DNA from: Pseudomonadota bacterium
GTDB lineage: Bacteria; Desulfobacterota; Binatia; UBA1149
DNA: 64,000 bases
Direction: 5' to 3'
NCBI GenBank assembly: GCA_014382245.1
Contig: JACNKC010000057.1
Location: 174-64,173 of the forward strand
Program-made: the position numbers and the translations under genes
Shown here: positions 39,015 through 50,150 of the stretch, in pieces
Layout: each line of letters begins with the position of its first letter
Numbering within the stretch: the first letter of the stretch is position 1
Notes under the pieces: model-generated
Database searches by the model: none
Seen by the model: the letters and a program-made list of their open reading frames with translations, nothing else
What the model was told of the DNA's origin: nothing

Positions 39015-39992
39015 ATGAACGTGGAATACGGAACCTTCGTACCGCAGGGCTGGCGCATGGAGATGCAGCATCTCCAGGGCGGCCAATCCCAGTGGAATGT
39101 CTTGACCGCGAGCGCGCGCGCGCTTGAAGACGCTGGCTACGACTCGTTGTGGTTGTACGACCACTTTCACACCGTGCCGCGTCCGGCCATGGAGCCGACC
39201 TTCGAGTGCTGGAGTACGATGGCCGCTCTGTCGCAGGTGACAAGCCGAGTGCGCCTGGGCCAGCTGGTGACCTGCAGCGCCTATCGCAACCCGGCTTACC
39301 TCGCCAAGCTGGCCAGCTGCGTTGACGTGATGAGCGGCGGCAGGGTCGACCTTGGAATAGGCGCCGGCTGGAAGACCGAGGAGTTCGAAGCCTACCAGTA
39401 CCCGTTTGCCGGCATACGCGAGCGCCTCGACCGCATGGCCGACACGGCGCGTATCTGCCGCGCGATGTTCACGGACGAGAAAGCCACCGTAGAGGGAGTG
39501 TACCACCGGGTGACCGACGCCATCAACGAGCCAAAGCCCGTGCAGGCCGGGGGGCCCCCGATCTGGATAGGCACGCAGGGCGAAAAAGTCGGCCTGCGCA
39601 TGGTGGCCGAAGTGGCCGACGGCTGGAACCATAACCGTGGGCCCGACGAGTACGAGCGCAAGCGCGAGATCCTTGCAGGGCATTGTCGCGACCGCGGCCG
39701 CGACCCCGACAGCGTGCGCATATCAGTGGAGAACACCTGCGTGATCTACGAGAGCGAAGCCGAGCTACGTGATTTTGCCGCTCGCTGGTGGCCGCACTAC
39801 AACGAGAAACAACTCACCAGGTTCCTGGCCAACTGCTGGACCGGGAGGGCCGAGGATATCGCGGCCGAGATAAGGTTTTTTACCGAGCGGGGAGCGTCGC
39901 TGGTGATCTGCTGGTTCCAGGACCTCTGTGACGCCGGCAATGAGGATTCGCAGGCGCAGCGATTTATGCGCGAGGTCGTGCCGCTGGTCTGA
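39015..39992 (+). CDS. LLM-class F420/flavin-dependent oxidoreductase
   Basis: Luciferase-like monooxygenase family pattern (MNVEYGTFVPQGW start, TIM barrel). Confidence 0.75.
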   Translation: MNVEYGTFVPQGWRMEMQHLQGGQSQWNVLTASARALEDAGYDSLWLYDHFHTVPRPAMEPTFECWSTMAALSQVTSRVRLGQLVTCSAYRNPAYLAKLASCVDVMSGGRVDLGIGAGWKTEEFEAYQYPFAGIRERLDRMADTARICRAMFTDEKATVEGVYHRVTDAINEPKPVQAGGPPIWIGTQGEKVGLRMVAEVADGWNHNRGPDEYERKREILAGHCRDRGRDPDSVRISVENTCVIYESEAELRDFAARWWPHYNEKQLTRFLANCWTGRAEDIAAEIRFFTERGASLVICWFQDLCDAGNEDSQAQRFMREVVPLV

Positions 39993-40094
39993 GCGACAGG
40001 GCTGGCCATACGAGTTTGCCGTGCCTGCACCTGGGGTACAGCCCGCCACCCGTCACGGTCAAATGAAGGGTGGCGGGCCTGCGGTTTGCATGCT

Positions 40095-43000
40095 TCAGCT
40101 CCCGGCCGGCTCGCACACGAACTTCAGTGAATCGGAATCCCGTGTGCCTCGTCCGTTCGTGCCTGGGGTTGAGATCGCCTGCACTTTCAGCTTACCCTTG
40201 CCGGCCCGCGTACCGTCGTTCCTCAGCGGAACCTGAAATTCTACCAGGTCACTGCAGTCACCCTCGACAGTGACCGGCGAGGAGTAGGTTATTTCAGATC
40301 CTGCTCTTCCGCCCAGCGTTGCCTGTCCAGCTGGATCCAGGGACGCTATGGCGTCACGGAGCGCGGTGCCGTTGGCTGCGTCGTGGGGCTTGCGACTGTC
40401 AGGCCTGGGCTTTTTAACCCGTAGCGAATCCACGCCGCTCACCGAGCATGCTAGATCGCCGGTCTTGGGGTCTACGAGGCGAGAGTCATCAAGATTCAGG
40501 CAGGCCGCAAGGCGGAAGACACATACTCCGTTGGCCTGGCCATCTCCGTCGCACACCGGATCACCGTCGCGGCAGGTCTGTTCCGGGTTTATGTAACCTC
40601 TTCTATCGAAGAAGGGGCGGTTGAGGGGGTTGCGTATAGACCACTCCAGCACGCAGTTCTTTTTTGCTGATCCCTTGCCGGGCACGAGGTCACCCGCGGT
40701 TTCGCCCATGTACATGTCGCTGAACTTGCATGTCTCGAACGGCCACACTCCTGTCCCCGATACGGAGGCTGGATCAACGGGGTCAGCATTGTTGTCGTCG
40801 CAGCAGAGCGGCACCGGCGTATCCGGGTCGGCTACACAATCGGCCGTTCTCAGTGAGCAACCGCTTCCAGTGTAGTTGTGTTTACACTTCTTGGTCGCAG
40901 CGGGGAGCATGGGAGTGCTGTTCCGCTTGAGCACCAGGTTCTGCTCCTGCAGGCTCGAGCTGCTCGAGCAGGTACCACCGGCGGGGCAGTTGTCTGGGTT
41001 TTTCTTGCTGCACGGTAGGCCGTCCATGGTGCCGCCCGAGCAGGTGCCCTTGTCTACGAAGCCGTCGTTGATACGATCATCCCAGCACATGCTAACGGTT
41101 ATCGCCGACGCGAACTGGGTGACGCCGGGGGCGGTCGTGTCTTCGGGGGTCAGAATTGCCCGCATGCCAACACCCGCTCCCGCCTCTACCTTGAACTTGT
41201 CACTGCCCGAGCTGTGATCGAAGCCGGTAATGGAAAAACTGGTGTCGGTGGCAATGGCACCAGCTGGTACATCAATGGTAACGCAGCCGTCAGTCGTGGT
41301 GAGCGTGCCTCCGGCAACACCGATGTTCACGCCACCGGACCTAGCCACGGTGCAGTTCTGGTCAGAAAAAGCAGGGCAGTCGTCGCATACATCGCCACCG
41401 TCGCAGCAGCCCTCCTTGCCGACGGGGACCACGCCCGAGCAGCCACCCGAAACCCAGAAAGCGGGGTCGGTACAGTCGTAGTCAGCCTGGTCCGGGTTGT
41501 ACTCGGCGGCGCAGTTGTCATCGGGGTCGCACACGCCGTCGGCGTCTGGATCGGTGCTGTCGCAGGTGTCGGTGGCTTCTTCGCAGTTGTAACAGGTACC
41601 CAGGGCCAGGCAGGGGTCGCCGCCGCTGGTGCAGGCCGCGGCCTGGCAGGTCTCAATGCCCGTGCAGTAAAGCCCGTCGTCCGAGCAGGCCGTTCCGTTG
41701 GCCAGGGCCGGATGCGCGCAGGCGCCCGCGCCATCGCACTGGTCGTCGGTGCATTCGTTGCCGTCGTTCGTGCAGGCTGTTCCCGCACTCACGTCGCAGC
41801 TGTTGGCCGCCTCGTCGCAACTGTCGGCGCACTCGGCGCCACCGACGCAGGGGTCGCCGCCGCTGGTGCAGGCCGCGGCCTGGCAGGTCTCAGCGCCCGT
41901 GCAGTAAAGCCCGTCGTCGGTGCAGGCAGTGTCGTTGGCCACGGCCGGATGCGCGCAGGCGCCCGTGCCGTCGCACACGTCGTCGGTGCATTCGTTGCCG
42001 TCGCTCGTGCAGGCTGTATTCGCCGCCACCGCGCAGCTGTTAGCCGCTTCGTTGCAACTGTCGTCGCATTCGGCGCCACCCACGCAGGGGTCGCCGCCGC
42101 TGGTGCAGGCTCCAGCCTGGCAGGATTCTGAACCAGTACAGTAAAGTCCGTCGTCGGTGCAGACAGTGTCGTTGGCCACCGGCGTGAACACGCAGGCGCC
42201 CAGCGCGCAGGAGTCCGAGGTGCACTCGTTGCCGTCATTGCACACCAGGGTCAGGCAGGGGTCGGGGGCAGGTTCTTTTATTACGTGAGTGGTGCCGTTG
42301 GGGTCGCCTATTCCCGAGCCGCCAACCGATAGATCCAGGGTGCCGTCGCCATCGAGGTCGCCGAGGTCTACGCCCCAGCCGAGATTGCCGTCGTTGACCT
42401 TGCCGTACCAGACCGCCGGTGCGGTGTTTATCGAGGTGTTCAGTCCACTGTAAGTGCCGCCCGAGAGTACAAATACGCCGCCGTTCTGGGCCATTCCGCC
42501 TCCGGAATACAAGGGCGCCCCGATGTAGAGTTCGAGCTTGCCGTCGGCGTCGTAGTCGGCGGCAGCCAGGTCGGTGCCCAGGCGGTCAAACACCGCGTCG
42601 CCGTCTCCTATGCAGCTGTCGGCGCTGGTGTAGGGCGAGGGGTAGTCCACCGGGTAGACCGCGGGCGAAGCCCCTATGGGTCCGTACTTGATGTACACGC
42701 GCGATTCCACCGCCACCCCGTCGCTGGGAGACCCGACCACGAGGTCGTCGATGCCATCGGTGTTGACGTCGGCCACGTCAAGGCCCTGGCCGAACCAGGC
42801 GTCGTCTTTCTTCATGTCGATGCAGGCCGAAGCGACGCAGGAACAGGAGCCGCCACAGGCCGGCGCGCCGTCCATGATGCTCAAGGGCTGGGAGACTGGA
42901 TTGTTGATGGGGCCGTTGGCGCAGAAATTGAACTCGACCACGGCCGCGGTTCCAAGCAGGTATACGCGTCCCGCCCGGGCGAACCCGTGGCGGTGTATGG

Positions 43001-43733
43001 GTGCGCCGACCACGAGATCGACCAGTCCGTCGTTGTCTATGTCGCCGGCTGCCGGGTAGCCGAACATTTCGAGTTGCGCGCCACCGCTCATTATCGAGTA
43101 GCCGTTGCCCCCGGTGTACAGGCGCCAGTTGTCGGCAAATATTTCCTGTCCCCACACGAGTCCCGCCGACTTGTGCAGCACGTGGATGGCACCGCCATCA
43201 ACCTTTACTCCACCCGCTAGGCCGGCCACCGGATCGGCCAGTGGGTCACCGATGATGAGGTCGTTCTGCCCGTCGCAGTCGATGTCGGCAATCTCAAGGC
43301 CCAGGCCGAAACCGCCGCTGCCCGTCAAGGCCGTGGGTGCGTTGATGCGGAAGGCGTTGGGGGCGACGGCGCCGGCTTTGCAAAGCACGCTCACGTCTTC
43401 GGGCGCTGCTCCCATGGCGATGGCCCCGCGTACAAGGCACACGTGGTCGCTGCCGGGCACGCCTATGGCGATGTCGTCAATGCCGTCAGCGTCAAGATCG
43501 CCCACGGCCACGCCGCGGCCCGAATCGGTGGCCAGCGCAGCACCGCCGAGGTAATCGTGGCCGCTCACGGCCTGGGCCGAGACCTCGGCCGGTACCGCCC
43601 AGGCCTGCTGGGCTGTAAGCGTGATGGTGAGCACTGCCAGCGCGAGCAAGGAAAAACCTCGCACTGCGACGCAAGCGCTGCCTGTGCACCCGGGAGCGCT
43701 GCGGTGAATCGACGAATGGTATTCAGTGGTCAT
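40095..43733 (-). CDS. large secreted FG-GAP (integrin-alpha beta-propeller) protein with tandem Cys-rich repeats and a TSP type-3-like Ca-binding motif
   Basis: Signal peptide. At least six FG-GAP repeats (GDLDADGIDDIAIG, IADIDCDGQNDLIIG, AGDIDNDGLVDLVVG, ...). About 3.3 copies of a 79-aa Cys-rich repeat (TACTDDGLYCTGAETCQAAACTSGGDPCVGGAEC...). DADGVCDPDDNCAAEYNPDQADYD TSP3-like motif. Cys-rich C-terminal domain. GGGGGGACAG RBS. Confidence 0.75.
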   Translation of the reverse strand: MTTEYHSSIHRSAPGCTGSACVAVRGFSLLALAVLTITLTAQQAWAVPAEVSAQAVSGHDYLGGAALATDSGRGVAVGDLDADGIDDIAIGVPGSDHVCLVRGAIAMGAAPEDVSVLCKAGAVAPNAFRINAPTALTGSGGFGLGLEIADIDCDGQNDLIIGDPLADPVAGLAGGVKVDGGAIHVLHKSAGLVWGQEIFADNWRLYTGGNGYSIMSGGAQLEMFGYPAAGDIDNDGLVDLVVGAPIHRHGFARAGRVYLLGTAAVVEFNFCANGPINNPVSQPLSIMDGAPACGGSCSCVASACIDMKKDDAWFGQGLDVADVNTDGIDDLVVGSPSDGVAVESRVYIKYGPIGASPAVYPVDYPSPYTSADSCIGDGDAVFDRLGTDLAAADYDADGKLELYIGAPLYSGGGMAQNGGVFVLSGGTYSGLNTSINTAPAVWYGKVNDGNLGWGVDLGDLDGDGTLDLSVGGSGIGDPNGTTHVIKEPAPDPCLTLVCNDGNECTSDSCALGACVFTPVANDTVCTDDGLYCTGSESCQAGACTSGGDPCVGGAECDDSCNEAANSCAVAANTACTSDGNECTDDVCDGTGACAHPAVANDTACTDDGLYCTGAETCQAAACTSGGDPCVGGAECADSCDEAANSCDVSAGTACTNDGNECTDDQCDGAGACAHPALANGTACSDDGLYCTGIETCQAAACTSGGDPCLALGTCYNCEEATDTCDSTDPDADGVCDPDDNCAAEYNPDQADYDCTDPAFWVSGGCSGVVPVGKEGCCDGGDVCDDCPAFSDQNCTVARSGGVNIGVAGGTLTTTDGCVTIDVPAGAIATDTSFSITGFDHSSGSDKFKVEAGAGVGMRAILTPEDTTAPGVTQFASAITVSMCWDDRINDGFVDKGTCSGGTMDGLPCSKKNPDNCPAGGTCSSSSSLQEQNLVLKRNSTPMLPAATKKCKHNYTGSGCSLRTADCVADPDTPVPLCCDDNNADPVDPASVSGTGVWPFETCKFSDMYMGETAGDLVPGKGSAKKNCVLEWSIRNPLNRPFFDRRGYINPEQTCRDGDPVCDGDGQANGVCVFRLAACLNLDDSRLVDPKTGDLACSVSGVDSLRVKKPRPDSRKPHDAANGTALRDAIASLDPAGQATLGGRAGSEITYSSPVTVEGDCSDLVEFQVPLRNDGTRAGKGKLKVQAISTPGTNGRGTRDSDSLKFVCEPAGS
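41560..42290. repeat. about 3 copies of a 237-bp near-identical tandem repeat inside the FG-GAP protein gene
   Basis: The motif GCAGGGGTCGCCGCCGCTGGTGCAGGC recurs at 41610, 41847 and 42084 (period 237 bp = 79 codons) with long near-identical flanks. Confidence 0.8.
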
Positions 43734-48900: not shown

Positions 48901-50078
48901 GGGGCCTGCGTGGGGATACCGCAGCGTTCACTGCGATCAAAGCCGGCACGCCGGCAGCGGCCCAGGTACTCCTCTATGAAATTGCCCCACAGGGCTCCCG
49001 CCTGCTCCAGCCCCTGCTCTATGCGGTTGACTCCCCCTCCCAGTAGTATGGCCAGGGGCTCTATCAGTGCAGCCTCGGTAAACGCCGTCAGTATCACCAT
49101 CTCGCCAACGTCGGCAAAACGGTGCATGTCTTCGAGCGCCGCGTCGCGATCGGGCACGTTGTCGAGGTGGTTCTTGAGCTCCATGACGCCATAGCTCACG
49201 TGGCGGGCTTCGTCCTGCAGGCAGAGGCGAAAGATTTCCTTGTCCACGTGTGTCTTGGCTATCATTTCGCCCGAGCGGAAGATTGACAGTACCAGGCCTT
49301 CGCCGAGCAGGTTCAGCAGGAAGGTGCCCATGGTGTGCGACGGCGCTTCCATGATGGCCTTCAAGGCCCACTCGAAGCCCGGCGACGCGTGCAGCAGGCC
49401 GCCGCCGGCGATGGCGCGCTTGCGAAACACCTCCTGGTGACGGGCCTCGTCCATCAACTGGGTGGCGAGAAAACTCTTCACCTCGAGAAAGTCCTGGGGG
49501 ATGCGGTACAACCACTTGGCCGGAAAGTCACCGGCCACGAACTCGACCTCGGTAAGAAAGGTACACAACTGGCAGGTGGCCTTCTCGAGGTCCTCGGGCA
49601 GGGATTTGAGTTCATCCCAGGGTATGTCGCGGGTAGCGTTCCACTGCCTGGCCTTGGCTTCTTCGTAAAGCGTGATGACGTTCTCGGCCCATAGTTCGTT
49701 GCGATCAACGACGTCGTAGGCTGACAGTACCGGCATACGTTGGGCGTAGGGGTCGCGCACCGAACCACGCGGGGCGAAGTTGAGCCACTCGGCTTTCTCG
49801 GGCATCTGCCCGTAGGGCTCCACCCGGTTTGTGTCGGCGTAGGTCATGCCGCGCGACGACGGCTTGGCGCGTCGTCCCCAGTTGGCCTTGTCGGTCTCCA
49901 TCCAGTGCAGCGAGAACCTGCCGGCCTGCAGGCGCTCACCGTTGTCATTCAGTATCTCGGCCCAGGTGGTCATCTGCTGCCCGAAGGCCAGCTCGTAAGA
50001 TTCCAGGCTTTCTTCGGGCACGGCGTGTTCGGGGGGCAGGGGGCTGAGGTCAGTGGGACTGGCGGCTGGCTTGCTCAT
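48888..50078 (-). CDS. ferritin-like diiron-carboxylate oxygenase (putative hydroxylase/desaturase-type)
   Basis: Two E-x-x-H iron-ligand motifs embedded in DEARH (QLMDEARHQEVF and LQDEARHVSYGV) about 90 aa apart, as in diiron oxygenases. The ATG at 50078 is preferred over the TTG at 50117. Confidence 0.55.
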   Translation of the reverse strand: MSKPAASPTDLSPLPPEHAVPEESLESYELAFGQQMTTWAEILNDNGERLQAGRFSLHWMETDKANWGRRAKPSSRGMTYADTNRVEPYGQMPEKAEWLNFAPRGSVRDPYAQRMPVLSAYDVVDRNELWAENVITLYEEAKARQWNATRDIPWDELKSLPEDLEKATCQLCTFLTEVEFVAGDFPAKWLYRIPQDFLEVKSFLATQLMDEARHQEVFRKRAIAGGGLLHASPGFEWALKAIMEAPSHTMGTFLLNLLGEGLVLSIFRSGEMIAKTHVDKEIFRLCLQDEARHVSYGVMELKNHLDNVPDRDAALEDMHRFADVGEMVILTAFTEAALIEPLAILLGGGVNRIEQGLEQAGALWGNFIEEYLGRCRRAGFDRSERCGIPTQAPWLQ

Positions 50079-50150
50079 GGCGGCTTCGCTTACAACAACT
50101 ATTGACAAATCACTCAATAGCGCTAAGAGTGTAGCTCACTGGAAGCTGTC

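What the first reader, a model, noticed from the sequence alone, without database searches (positions are those of the whole stretch)
40095..43733. 1212-aa secreted FG-GAP / Cys-rich repeat / TSP3 protein with 237-bp tandem DNA repeats
The protein combines an integrin-alpha-like beta-propeller (at least six FG-GAP Ca-binding repeats), about 3.3 copies of a 79-aa disulfide-rich module (reminiscent of Myxococcus-type cysteine-rich repeats), a thrombospondin type-3-like Ca-binding motif and a Cys-rich C-terminal domain. At the DNA level the repeat is a near-perfect 237-bp tandem (41610, 41847, 42084). This is a substrate for recombination-driven copy-number variation, so the module count is likely polymorphic between strains. 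The architecture suggests a Ca-dependent adhesin or cell-surface interaction protein.
Basis: seen in the sequence. Interest (0 to 1): 0.6.

Follow-up and report, generated by a model that had tools for sequence, protein, structure and literature searches.

The report
Binatota adhesin with swappable C-terminal cassette
The large secreted, calcium- and disulfide-rich repeat protein is real, but its notable feature is that in this strain of an uncultured marine Binatota bacterium the last 504 residues (a ZU5-like, possibly self-cleaving domain plus an undescribed Binatota-specific module) have been replaced wholesale, with the junction exactly at the end of the tandem repeats.

Summary
The 1212-aa ORF (40095-43733, minus strand) is real. 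It has a signal peptide, an FG-GAP propeller (Pfam E 3e-28, six DxDxDG sites) and 2.7 Cys-rich units of 79 aa encoded by a 237-bp tandem. The tandem is 89%/78% identical between copies, not near-perfect. No DUF4215, Myxo_disulf_rpt or Pfam TSP_3 match was found, only a borderline Dicty_CTDC hit.

Three things are new:
- **Cassette replacement.** A syntenic contig 99.7% identical in both flanks carries a C-terminal cassette only 47% identical in protein. The breakpoints lie exactly after the last repeat (41610) and at the neighbouring gene's stop codon (~39998). The window's allele is independently assembled, is the derived state, and has lower GC3.
- **Copy number.** Three- and four-copy arrays occur on both allele backgrounds. 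Collapse of the three-copy assemblies is not excluded.

The function (a releasable surface adhesin) is inferred.

The parts
40095..43733 (-). Whole ORF, 1212 aa (stop codon included); NCBI MBC8292524.1 'FG-GAP repeat protein'
43596..43733 (-). Leader, aa 1-46: long n-region, hydrophobic core FSLLALAVLTITL and AWA|VP signal-peptidase-I-like site. Alternative starts are V24 (used in the JGI call) and M29 (used in one NCBI call)
   Evidence: Sequence read directly. The M1 start is conserved in L057/L058. No signal-peptide predictor was available
42279..43562 (-). FG-GAP / integrin-alpha-like beta-propeller, aa ~58-485, with six DxDxDG Ca-binding loops and a Cys-rich insertion at aa 271-304
   Evidence: Pfam FG-GAP E 3.4e-28 in 6 stretches, FG-GAP_3 E 7e-12; motif positions
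41610..42257 (-). Cys-rich tandem module, aa 493-708: units of 77, 79 and 53 conserved residues (34 Cys). Each unit contains a slime-mould CTDC-like sub-repeat (C-T-x-D-G-N-E-C-T-x-D-x-C)
   Evidence: Dicty_CTDC 27.3 bits on the isolated region
41606..42206 (.). 237-bp tandem DNA repeat, 2.5 copies, 86% matches
   Evidence: TRF; the repeat finder families D1/D2
39998..41609 (-). Replaced 'W' cassette: codons 709-1212 plus the ~97-nt 3' spacer. No megablast similarity to the syntenic contig L001, whose flanks are 99.7% identical. The left breakpoint falls right after the Cys codon of the last ...GGDPC. The right breakpoint is at the stop codon of the convergent luciferase-like gene
41475..41552 (-). 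Single thrombospondin-type-3-like Ca-binding loop, aa 728-753 (motif level only)
   Evidence: Sequence; no Pfam TSP_3 hit; TSP_3 hits at this place in 5/45 relatives
40698..41351 (-). ZU5-superfamily-like beta-sandwich, aa ~795-1012, with two disulfide-rich insertions (aa ~898-925 and ~945-992)
40719..40724 (-). F1004-S1005, candidate autoproteolytic scissile bond, in the turn between the last two strands of the ZU5-like sandwich
   Evidence: F in 38/41 and S in 36/41 full-length relatives, within the motif N-x-W-x-F-Q-T-C-x-F-S-E; strands E209-216 and E221-225 of the model. Cleavage itself is inferred, not shown
40098..40688 (-). 'Module B', aa 1016-1212: 195-aa disulfide-bonded Ig-like sandwich with one helix and a C-x-D-G-D-x-x-C-D-x-D-G-x-x-[ND]-G-x-C loop. 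Binatota-specific, with no Pfam/NCBIfam model
39015..39992 (+). Convergent luciferase-like monooxygenase gene. Its stop codon marks the right edge of the replaced segment. It is a neighbour, not part of the protein

Best explanation
The gene encodes a Sec-exported, Ca-binding, heavily disulfide-bonded extracellular protein of a marine Binatota (UBP10) bacterium, built as passenger-hinge-tail.

- **Passenger:** an FG-GAP propeller on a stalk of Cys-rich 79-aa units and one TSP3-like loop. This is the likely ligand-binding and adhesive part.
- **Hinge:** a ZU5-superfamily beta-sandwich. Its most conserved element is a Phe-Ser dipeptide in the turn between its last two strands. I infer that it undergoes N-O acyl-shift autoproteolysis at F1004|S1005, as ZU5/FIIND, GAIN and bacterial MAIN domains do. 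That would leave the two fragments non-covalently joined, so the passenger can be shed.
- **Tail:** 'module B', a 195-aa Binatota-specific Ig-like domain that many unrelated secreted enzymes and adhesins of this phylum carry, usually at the extreme C-terminus. I infer that it is a common envelope- or matrix-binding (retention) module.

At the DNA level the Cys-rich repeats act as recombination substrates in two ways.
1. In-register unequal crossing-over changes the unit number between 3 and 4.
2. The repeat sequence, shared with paralogous genes, marks the 5' boundary of a ~1.6-kb hinge+tail cassette that is exchanged as a block. In this strain the ancestral cassette was replaced by a homologous one only ~47% identical.

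Shown: the domain content, the fold, the family distribution, the cassette replacement and its breakpoints. Inferred: autoproteolysis, anchoring, adhesion, and the selective reason for the replacement.
For: **Architecture**
- Pfam FG-GAP hits and six Ca motifs.
- Repeat units.

**Hinge**
- AF2 model with pLDDT 84.7 and pTM 0.84.
- Foldseek: ankyrin-B ZU5-ZU5-UPA E 3.8e-4, UNC5b E 7e-4.
- Sequence profiles against PDB return only ZU5 proteins, best E 3.3e-5.
- Pfam ZU5 scores 12.6-20.2 bits in 5 of 8 relatives.
- The F-S dipeptide is conserved in 38/41 and 36/41 relatives, in a beta-turn, and is kept in both alleles.
- Precedent: SF|S cleavage in the CARD8/NLRP1 ZU5-like domain (PMC3210808). 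ZU5, GPS and Nup98 form one superfamily that also occurs in bacterial surface proteins (PMC3482391). Bacterial MAIN domains cleave at HF|S in a beta-turn and sit between adhesin/enzyme passengers and a surface anchor (bioRxiv 10.64898/2026.05.12.724683).

**Tail**
- 1465 clusters at E<=1e-3 and 644 at <=1e-10.
- The module ends 0-2 residues from the stop codon in most carriers.
- Carriers include propellers, beta-helices, penicillin amidase, phosphodiesterase, sulfatase and lactonase.
- 54 genome loci were found, nearly all Binatia/Binatota/UBP10 MAGs, often several per genome.

**Replacement**
- The flanks are 99.7% identical to L001, while the cassette is undetectable by megablast. Protein identity is 99.6% against 46.7%.
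- The breakpoints are sharp to the base.
- The sister lineage at 92% ANI (L057/L058) is colinear with L001 and breaks against the window at the same two points.
- The W allele was re-assembled at the same locus in ENA contigs at 247-474x coverage, 99.94% identical through the cassette.
- GC3 is 0.71 in W against 0.80 in the N-part and in the L cassette.
- No relative of W is closer than 42% in the databases searched.
- A second example of the same cassette boundary: the adjacent paralogs in L002 share only their last 1607 nt, at 94.9%.

**Copy number:**
Against: - No experiment supports cleavage. The residue two before the Ser is not His (K in the window; D/S/N/Y in relatives), so the canonical H-x-S triad of GAIN/MAIN/PIDD is absent.
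- Many ZU5 domains (ankyrin, ZO-1, UNC5B, which are the best structural matches) do not cleave.
- The profile alignments to ZU5 cover only the first ~90 positions, so equivalence of the F-S turn rests on the predicted topology. I could not inspect model coordinates.
- Module B has no membrane anchor, lipobox or known wall-binding motif. It also occurs N-terminally, internally and duplicated. This fits a binding module but is no proof of anchoring.
- The envelope type and secretion route of Binatota are unknown to me.
- The donor of the W cassette was not found.
- A crossover exactly at the downstream gene's stop codon has no obvious homology to explain it.
Confidence: 0.55

Rival explanations
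1. The ZU5-like domain is only a structural or binding sandwich that does not cleave, as in ankyrin, ZO-1 and UNC5B. The protein is then a single-chain secreted or periplasmic Ca-binding protein, and the conserved F-S turn is a folding constraint.
For: The best structural and sequence matches are to non-cleaving ZU5 domains. There is no His at position -2. Neighbouring residues W997, T1001, C1002 and G1010 are conserved as strongly as F-S, so the whole hairpin may be structural.
Against: F-S at the C-terminal hairpin is the cleavage dipeptide of PIDD, NLRP1, CARD8, Nup98 and YfkN-type MAIN domains (PMC3210808). NLRP1 and CARD8 also lack His at -2. The order passenger - sandwich - terminal module copies the MAIN/GAIN arrangement. 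A His is conserved in 30/41 relatives about 50 residues upstream (window H952, one position off) and could serve as the base.
Confidence: 0.3
2. Module B is a C-terminal secretion or sorting signal domain recognised by a lineage-specific export or attachment machinery and possibly removed, like the T9SS C-terminal domain of Bacteroidota. It is not a retention module.
For: It ends within 0-2 residues of the stop codon in most large carriers. It has an Ig-like sandwich fold. It is carried by very diverse passengers and is restricted to one phylum.
Against: It is twice the size of known sorting domains and has conserved disulfides and a Ca-type loop. It also occurs directly after the signal peptide, internally and in tandem, which a terminal signal should not. 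There is no NCBIfam T9SS/PEP-CTERM/MYXO-CTERM-type hit. No conserved neighbouring machinery was looked for.
Confidence: 0.15
3. The protein is a polymorphic toxin or contact-dependent effector. The exchanged C-terminus would be a toxin cassette, as in CdiA and Rhs.
For: A variable C-terminal cassette is exchanged by recombination downstream of repeats. A ZU5-type releasing domain is a known feature of polymorphic toxins (PMC3482391).
Against: The two alleles are homologous over their whole length and share the same fold family. There is no toxin or PADLOC-like domain, no Pfam hit and no immunity gene. The cassette is followed by a ~100-nt spacer and a convergent metabolic gene. The same module sits on hydrolases and small proteins.
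Confidence: 0.04
4. The polymorphisms are metagenome-assembly artefacts. The contig would be chimeric at the repeat, producing the cassette 'swap', and/or the four-unit array would be collapsed to three.
For: Tandem repeats are classic misassembly sites. SPAdes scaffolds L063/L064 carry a 100-N gap inside the array. The W-allele lineage has the hybrid fourth unit in those scaffolds but not in the window. In-register collapse would give exactly the three-unit sequence observed.
Against: For the swap: it would need two switches, the second in unique sequence at a stop codon. The W junction and both flanks were re-assembled independently in 4 ENA contigs. For collapse: the longest exact period-237 run in the four-unit array is 96 nt, shorter than the k=141 used for the three-unit contig L065. 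The sister lineage's three-unit form has a different hybrid junction.
Confidence: 0.25

Closest known systems
MAIN domains (microbial GAIN-like autoproteolysis-inducing domains; e.g. B. subtilis YfkN), Brogan & Rudner, bioRxiv 2026, 10.64898/2026.05.12.724683
   Same: Both share the order signal peptide - adhesion/enzymatic passenger - beta-sandwich with a conserved x-F-S in a beta-turn - terminal surface-associated domain. Both families have very diverse passengers and large proteins.
ZU5 / ZU5-UPA (FIIND) domains of ankyrin, UNC5, PIDD, NLRP1 and CARD8; the ZU5 superfamily of Zhang et al. 2012 (PMC3482391)
   Same: The fold matches and sequence similarity is detectable. The N-terminal signature GG-x-L...G-V-x-I-x-I-P-x-G-A is shared. 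An F-S lies at the C-terminal hairpin, as in the SF|S and HF|S sites (PMC3210808). Zhang et al. already noted ZU5 domains in large bacterial surface proteins with adhesion and enzymatic modules.
Bacterial integrin-alpha-type FG-GAP propeller proteins (PMC3192720)
   Same: FG-GAP repeats carry DxDxDG Ca loops in a secreted protein.
   Different: Apart from three orthologue clusters, propeller relatives are only 25-33% identical. The stalk, hinge and tail combination is specific to this family.
C-terminal cassette exchange in CdiA/Rhs polymorphic toxins, and polymorphic surface receptors such as Myxococcus TraA (recalled from general knowledge, not tested here)
   Same: A conserved N-terminal part with repeats is joined to a block-wise exchangeable variable part. 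Closely related strains differ sharply at a defined junction.
   Different: The exchanged parts here are homologous non-toxin domains. There is no immunity gene and no orphan cassette array at this locus. The junction lies in a Cys-rich repeat rather than at a VENN/PxxxxDPxGL-type motif.

Membership tests
FG-GAP / integrin-alpha beta-propeller (PF01839) | Pfam score above the gathering cut-off, in several repeats | tested here: met
   97.4 bits against 22.1, in 6 stretches; FG-GAP_3 46.2 bits against 26.9
FG-GAP / integrin-alpha beta-propeller (PF01839) | DxDxDG-type Ca-binding loops in the blades; seven blades | tested here: inconclusive
   Six loops were found. A seventh blade was not demonstrated because the propeller was not modelled
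Myxococcus cysteine-rich repeat (TIGR02232) / DUF4215 (PF13948) | Match to the family profile | tested here: not met
   No hit at E<=1 in NCBIfam or Pfam on the whole protein, and none at E<=10 on the isolated repeat region. DUF4215 is present in 15/45 other carriers of the C-terminal domain
Dictyostelium CTDC repeat (PF00526) | Pfam score above the gathering cut-off (27 bits) | tested here: inconclusive
   23.8 bits on the whole protein; 27.3 bits, E 3.1e-6, in 3 stretches on the isolated region
Thrombospondin type-3 repeat (PF02412) | Match to the TSP_3 profile; usually several consecutive repeats | tested here: not met
   No hit at E<=10 on aa 717-794. A single D-x-D-x-D-G-x-x-D-x-x-D-N-C-x-x-x-x-N-x-x-Q-x-D-x-D motif is present by eye
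ZU5 superfamily (ZU5 / GPS-GAIN / Nup98 autopeptidase fold) | Beta-sandwich fold of ZU5 | tested here: met
ZU5 superfamily (ZU5 / GPS-GAIN / Nup98 autopeptidase fold) | Sequence similarity to ZU5 | tested here: met
   The family profile with the two insertions removed hits only ZU5 proteins in PDB, best ankyrin-1 E 3.3e-5. Pfam ZU5 stays below threshold (12.6-20.2 bits) in 5/8 relatives and gives no hit on the window protein itself
ZU5 superfamily (ZU5 / GPS-GAIN / Nup98 autopeptidase fold) | Autoproteolytic [HS]-F-[ST] motif at the C-terminal hairpin, and actual cleavage | tested here: inconclusive
   F-S is conserved (38/41 and 36/41) in a predicted beta-turn. The -2 residue is variable and not His. 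Cleavage is not testable with these tools
MAIN domain proteins (bioRxiv 10.64898/2026.05.12.724683) | GAIN-B-like fold with a conserved H-x-S catalytic motif | tested here: not met
MAIN domain proteins (bioRxiv 10.64898/2026.05.12.724683) | Architecture: signal peptide - passengers - autoproteolytic domain - known cell-surface anchor (sortase signal, SLH, wall-binding domain) | tested here: inconclusive
   The order of parts matches, but the terminal domain is not a known anchor
Polymorphic toxin systems | C-terminal toxin domain plus an adjacent immunity gene | tested here: not met
   There is no toxin family hit. The downstream neighbour is a convergent luciferase-like monooxygenase. The alleles are homologous throughout
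T9SS-type / other known C-terminal sorting domains | Match to NCBIfam/Pfam sorting-domain models; strictly terminal position | tested here: not met
   No hit. Module B also occurs N-terminally, internally and in tandem

The most novel reading that the evidence does not exclude
Binatota possess a previously undescribed, phylum-wide surface-display system. In it, hundreds of secreted adhesins and enzymes are held on the cell by a Ca- and disulfide-stabilised Ig-like module (module B). In a large subset they are joined to it through a self-cleaving ZU5-type hinge, a diderm counterpart of the sortase/SLH-anchored MAIN proteins. The hinge+tail block is exchanged between genes and strains by recombination in flanking Cys-rich repeats, so that closely related strains display different tails, for example to match or evade a strain-specific envelope partner, phage or predator.
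Probability: 0.2. Interest if true: 0.7.

Novelty: new variant of a known kind. Interest (0 to 1): 0.5.

Why it matters
Binatota are globally distributed but uncultured, and nothing is known about their cell surface.

This locus defines a domain family absent from Pfam and NCBIfam. It has more than 1,400 clusters at 50% identity and marks a large part of the phylum's secreted proteome. The locus also links that family to a ZU5/GAIN/MAIN-type hinge. If the hinge cleaves, force- or signal-dependent shedding of surface proteins would extend to a diderm phylum and to ZU5-type domains lacking the canonical His.

The clean single-gene cassette replacement between genomes 99.7% identical is a natural experiment. 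It points to strong strain-level selection, or frequent recombination, on the tail rather than on the adhesive head. It also shows that Cys-rich repeats can act as recombination junctions.

Tried and rejected
- **NCBIfam** on the whole protein gave only noise, and no Myxo_disulf_rpt hit.
- **Pfam TSP_3** on the isolated segment gave nothing.
- **Word-indexed homologue search with the C-terminal 423 aa** returned only two new proteins. The exhaustive profile search was needed to find the family.
- **The afdb50 fold library** was unavailable.
- **Profile of the intact C-terminal domain against PDB** gave only E 0.6-2 to ZU5. Removing the two insertions gave E 3e-5.
- **'Orphan silent cassette' downstream of the L002 orthologue** is rejected. 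It is a complete 892-aa paralog with its own signal peptide.
- **A second copy of the C-terminal domain in the window:** none, by tblastn or by HMM on six frames.
- **In-situ hypermutation as the source of allele divergence** is rejected. The L allele is conserved across a 92%-ANI split while W differs from everything, and W has a different GC3.
- **tRNA and Rfam scans** of the window found nothing.
- **Promoter and terminator scan** was uninformative.
I therefore could not verify strand pairing around F-S or the disulfide pattern.

Full report
**1. The observation.**
- The window holds an ATG-to-stop ORF of 1212 aa at 40095..43733 on the minus strand. It is NCBI protein MBC8292524.1, 'FG-GAP repeat protein'.
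- Pfam gives FG-GAP at 97.4 bits (cut-off 22.1) in six stretches, plus FG-GAP_3. Six D-x-[DN]-x-D-G loops lie at aa 79, 150, 231, 322, 393 and 459.
- The leader ends in ...LLALAVLTITLTAQQAWA|VP. A G-rich Shine-Dalgarno-like run precedes the ATG, and the same start is conserved in orthologues.
- TRF finds a 237-bp period at 41606-42206, with 2.5 copies and 86% matches. The repeat finder gives 89% identity between the two full copies and 78% for the third over 122 nt.
- At protein level the units are 77, 79 and 53 conserved residues.
- So the repeat and its coordinates are right, but 'near-perfect' and '3.3 copies' are overstated.
- The repeat is not a Myxococcus-type or DUF4215 repeat (no hit). 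Its only family match is a borderline Dicty_CTDC hit (23.8 or 27.3 bits against a cut-off of 27).
- The TSP3-like element is a single motif (aa 728-753) without a Pfam hit.

**2. Who carries it.**
- Only three clusters of close relatives exist among 5.8 billion sequences.
- One member is annotated 'Candidatus Binatota bacterium'.
- A scan of 185,579 species genomes with the C-terminal profile returned 54 loci. Nearly all come from Binatia/Binatota/UBP10 MAGs, or from MAGs labelled Deltaproteobacteria or Myxococcales.
- The gene neighbourhood fits that assignment: acyl-CoA dehydrogenases, enoyl-CoA hydratases, a thiolase, ChsH2-like proteins, luciferase-like monooxygenase and TetR regulators.
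- There are no tRNA or Rfam features in the window.

**3. The C-terminal 427 residues are two domains.**
- A profile of aa 790-1212 with its relatives, searched exhaustively against 1.84 billion representatives, found 1465 clusters at E<=1e-3, 644 at <=1e-10 and 86 at <=1e-30.
- The full ~425-aa unit sits at the C-terminus of proteins of 500-1600 aa.
- Its last ~195 aa ('module B') also occurs alone, duplicated, or directly after a signal peptide.
- Carriers have very diverse N-terminal parts: DUF4215, disintegrin-like, TSP_3, FG-GAP, DUF5122, BNR and sortilin propellers, beta-helices, penicillin amidase, phosphodiesterase, sulfatase and lactonase.
- Neither Pfam nor NCBIfam has a model for either part.

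**4. Fold of the first part.**
- AlphaFold2 on a 30-sequence alignment gave pLDDT 84.7 and pTM 0.84.
- Foldseek agrees, with ankyrin-B ZU5-ZU5-UPA at E 3.8e-4 and UNC5b at 7e-4.
- By sequence, the intact profile hits only ZU5 chains in PDB but weakly (E 0.6-2).
- After removing the two Cys-rich insertions seen in the model, all eight hits are ZU5 proteins, the best at E 3.3e-5.
- Pfam ZU5 scores 12.6-20.2 bits in five of eight relatives.
- I therefore place aa ~795-1012 in the ZU5 superfamily. According to Zhang et al. 2012 this superfamily unites ZU5, GPS/GAIN and Nup98 autopeptidase domains, and it was already noticed in large bacterial surface proteins (PMC3482391).

**5. A candidate self-cleavage site.**
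- The most conserved stretch of this domain is N-x-W-x-F-Q-T-C-x-F-S-E-x-x-x-G. F1004 is present in 38 of 41 full-length relatives and S1005 in 36 of 41. Both alleles described below keep it.
- In the model it lies in the turn between the last two strands (E209-216 and E221-225 of the model).
- That is the position and the dipeptide at which PIDD, NLRP1 and CARD8 cleave (SF|S; PMC3210808). The recently described bacterial MAIN domains cleave there too (HF|S, shown by Edman degradation and by S-to-A/T mutants; bioRxiv 10.64898/2026.05.12.724683).
- MAIN proteins have the order signal peptide - adhesion/enzymatic passengers - MAIN domain - surface anchor. The present family copies that order.
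- Three points count against the inference. The residue at -2 is not His (K here). The best structural matches are non-cleaving ZU5 domains. The equivalence of the turn rests on predicted topology only.
- A His conserved in 30 of 41 relatives about 50 residues upstream (H952 here, one position off) is a possible base.
- Cleavage is therefore an inference that I rate at roughly even odds.

**6. Module B.**
- Modelled alone it reaches pLDDT 94: an Ig-like sandwich with one helix.
- It has conserved Cys pairs and a C-x-D-G-D-x-x-C-D-x-D-G-x-x-[ND]-G-x-C loop that looks like a Ca site.
- It is carried by many unrelated secreted proteins of one phylum, usually ending 0-2 residues before the stop codon, but sometimes N-terminal or tandem. 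This behaviour is what one sees for retention or binding modules such as SLH or LysM domains. That reading is inferred, and a sorting-signal role is the main rival.

**7. The cassette replacement.**
- Contig L001 (JGI 3300011013) is syntenic and 99.7% identical to the window over 12 kb on one side and 10 kb on the other. Window 39998-41609 has no megablast match to it.
- Protein identity is 99.6% for aa 24-707 and 46.7% from aa 708 on.
- Identity is perfect through the Cys codon of the last ...GGDPC and then collapses. It resumes at the stop codon of the convergent luciferase-like gene.
- Contigs of a sister lineage (L057 and L058, ~92% DNA identity) are colinear with L001 through the whole gene. 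They break against the window at the same two points. The L-type cassette is therefore ancestral and the window's W-type cassette is a replacement.
- W is not an assembly chimera. Four ENA contigs (coverage 247-474x) carry it at the same locus, 99.94% identical to the window straight through the cassette.
- W has no relative closer than 42% anywhere searched. The L cassette is closer to the tails of other protein families (45-51%) than to W.
- GC3 of W is 0.71, against 0.80 for the rest of the gene and for L.
- In the non-syntenic contig L002, the orthologue and an adjacent 892-aa paralog with a different N-terminal part share only their last 1607 nt, at 94.9%. The boundary again lies in the last Cys-rich unit.
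- So the block [end of last repeat + TSP3-like loop + ZU5-like domain + module B] behaves as a recombination unit.

**8. Copy number.**
- Four units occur in L001, L057, L058, P0222, P0223, P0227, P0231 and P0233. Three occur in the window, L065/P0232 and P0226.
- The extra unit in L001 is a clean hybrid. Its first ~104 nt match the last unit and the rest match unit 2. This is the product of in-register unequal crossing-over.
- P0226 has a different hybrid junction.
- L065 differs from L001 by 0.04% in the flanks yet has three units.
- The W-allele scaffolds L063/L064 contain the hybrid unit that the window lacks, with a 100-N gap in the array.
- All four combinations of {3,4} units and {W,L} alleles are thus seen.
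- This fits frequent 3<->4 switching, but in-register collapse by a short-read assembler would give the same three-unit sequence.
- The longest exact period-237 run in the four-unit array is 96 nt, below the k=141 of the three-unit contig L065. That argues against simple collapse without excluding it.
- I rate real polymorphism at about two in three.

**9. Verdict.**
Several family assignments were wrong, and the most informative features were missed.
- The best-supported model is a passenger-hinge-tail surface protein analogous to MAIN/GAIN proteins.
- It is not a demonstrated member of the MAIN family. The H-x-S motif is not met, no known anchor is present, and similarity to GAIN is weaker than to ZU5.
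- It is a new variant of a known kind: a ZU5-type hinge joined to an undescribed Binatota-specific module, exchanged as a cassette at a Cys-rich repeat.
- Interest is moderate. It offers a new large domain family, a testable autoproteolysis prediction in an uncultured phylum, and a clean example of single-gene tail replacement. No function has been demonstrated.

Noticed in passing
L002:13346-16024 (and L002:9377-13324): Directly downstream (22 nt) of the 1315-aa orthologue lies an 892-aa paralog. It has its own signal peptide and a different Cys-rich N-terminal part, but its last 1607 nt are 94.9% identical to the orthologue's. This suggests gene conversion or recent duplication of the hinge+tail cassette. 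The database protein P0003 is an N-truncated call of the orthologue.
   Followed up: partly
L002:3552-9083: This 1843-aa secreted protein has BNR/sortilin-like repeats and the same type of 79-aa Cys-rich units. Its C-terminal region is different, made of repeated ...HYK[CM]YKAK... segments. Some ZU5-like domains without module B (e.g. P0123, P0143, P0170) continue into a similar ...SYK[AV]K sequence. This may be an alternative tail module.
   Followed up: no
L017, L018, L022, L027, L045 (ORFs of ~320-370 aa at the match position): This is a conserved small Binatota protein family. It has a signal peptide, a module-B variant and a ~135-aa C-terminal domain with an invariant S-C-A-x-S-G-C-H-D (C-x4-C-H, haem-c-like) motif, ending in ...LWIxAGAPxTGWVPGTD.
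   Followed up: no
L032:5656-9312 and L049:5749-9438: These ~1200-aa proteins carry module B immediately after the signal peptide, followed by ~1000 residues of other domains. Module B is therefore not restricted to C-termini.
   Followed up: no
L063:7744-7843 and the equivalent in L064: A 100-N scaffold gap lies inside the 237-bp array in SPAdes assemblies of the W-allele lineage. The unit after the gap is the hybrid fourth unit that is absent from the window.
   Followed up: yes
window ~50069-50085: A small indel or overlap occurs between the window and both L001 and L065, at the junction of two blastn blocks. It lies in the region between a TetR-family gene and an unannotated 396-aa gene. 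Otherwise the contigs are 99.3-99.7% identical.
   Followed up: no
window 41214-42131 (+) and other long ORFs antisense to the gene: Several ORFs of 80-305 aa overlap the gene on the opposite strand or in other frames, with Ala/Arg/Gly-rich translations. They are typical high-GC artefacts, not genes.
   Followed up: no
L029 (CAMBZJ010000004.1): A contig carrying a module-B protein is titled 'MAG: Klebsiella pneumoniae'. All other carriers are Binatota-like, so this is probably a mislabelled or contaminated bin.
   Followed up: no
window 41300-41610 v L001:12293-12540: The first ~330 nt of the otherwise diverged cassettes are 77% identical. They contain two perfectly identical islands, ~39 nt over the TSP3-like motif and ~32 nt over GCCDGGDVCD. 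Conservation includes synonymous sites, which hints at mosaic recombination within the cassette.
   Followed up: no
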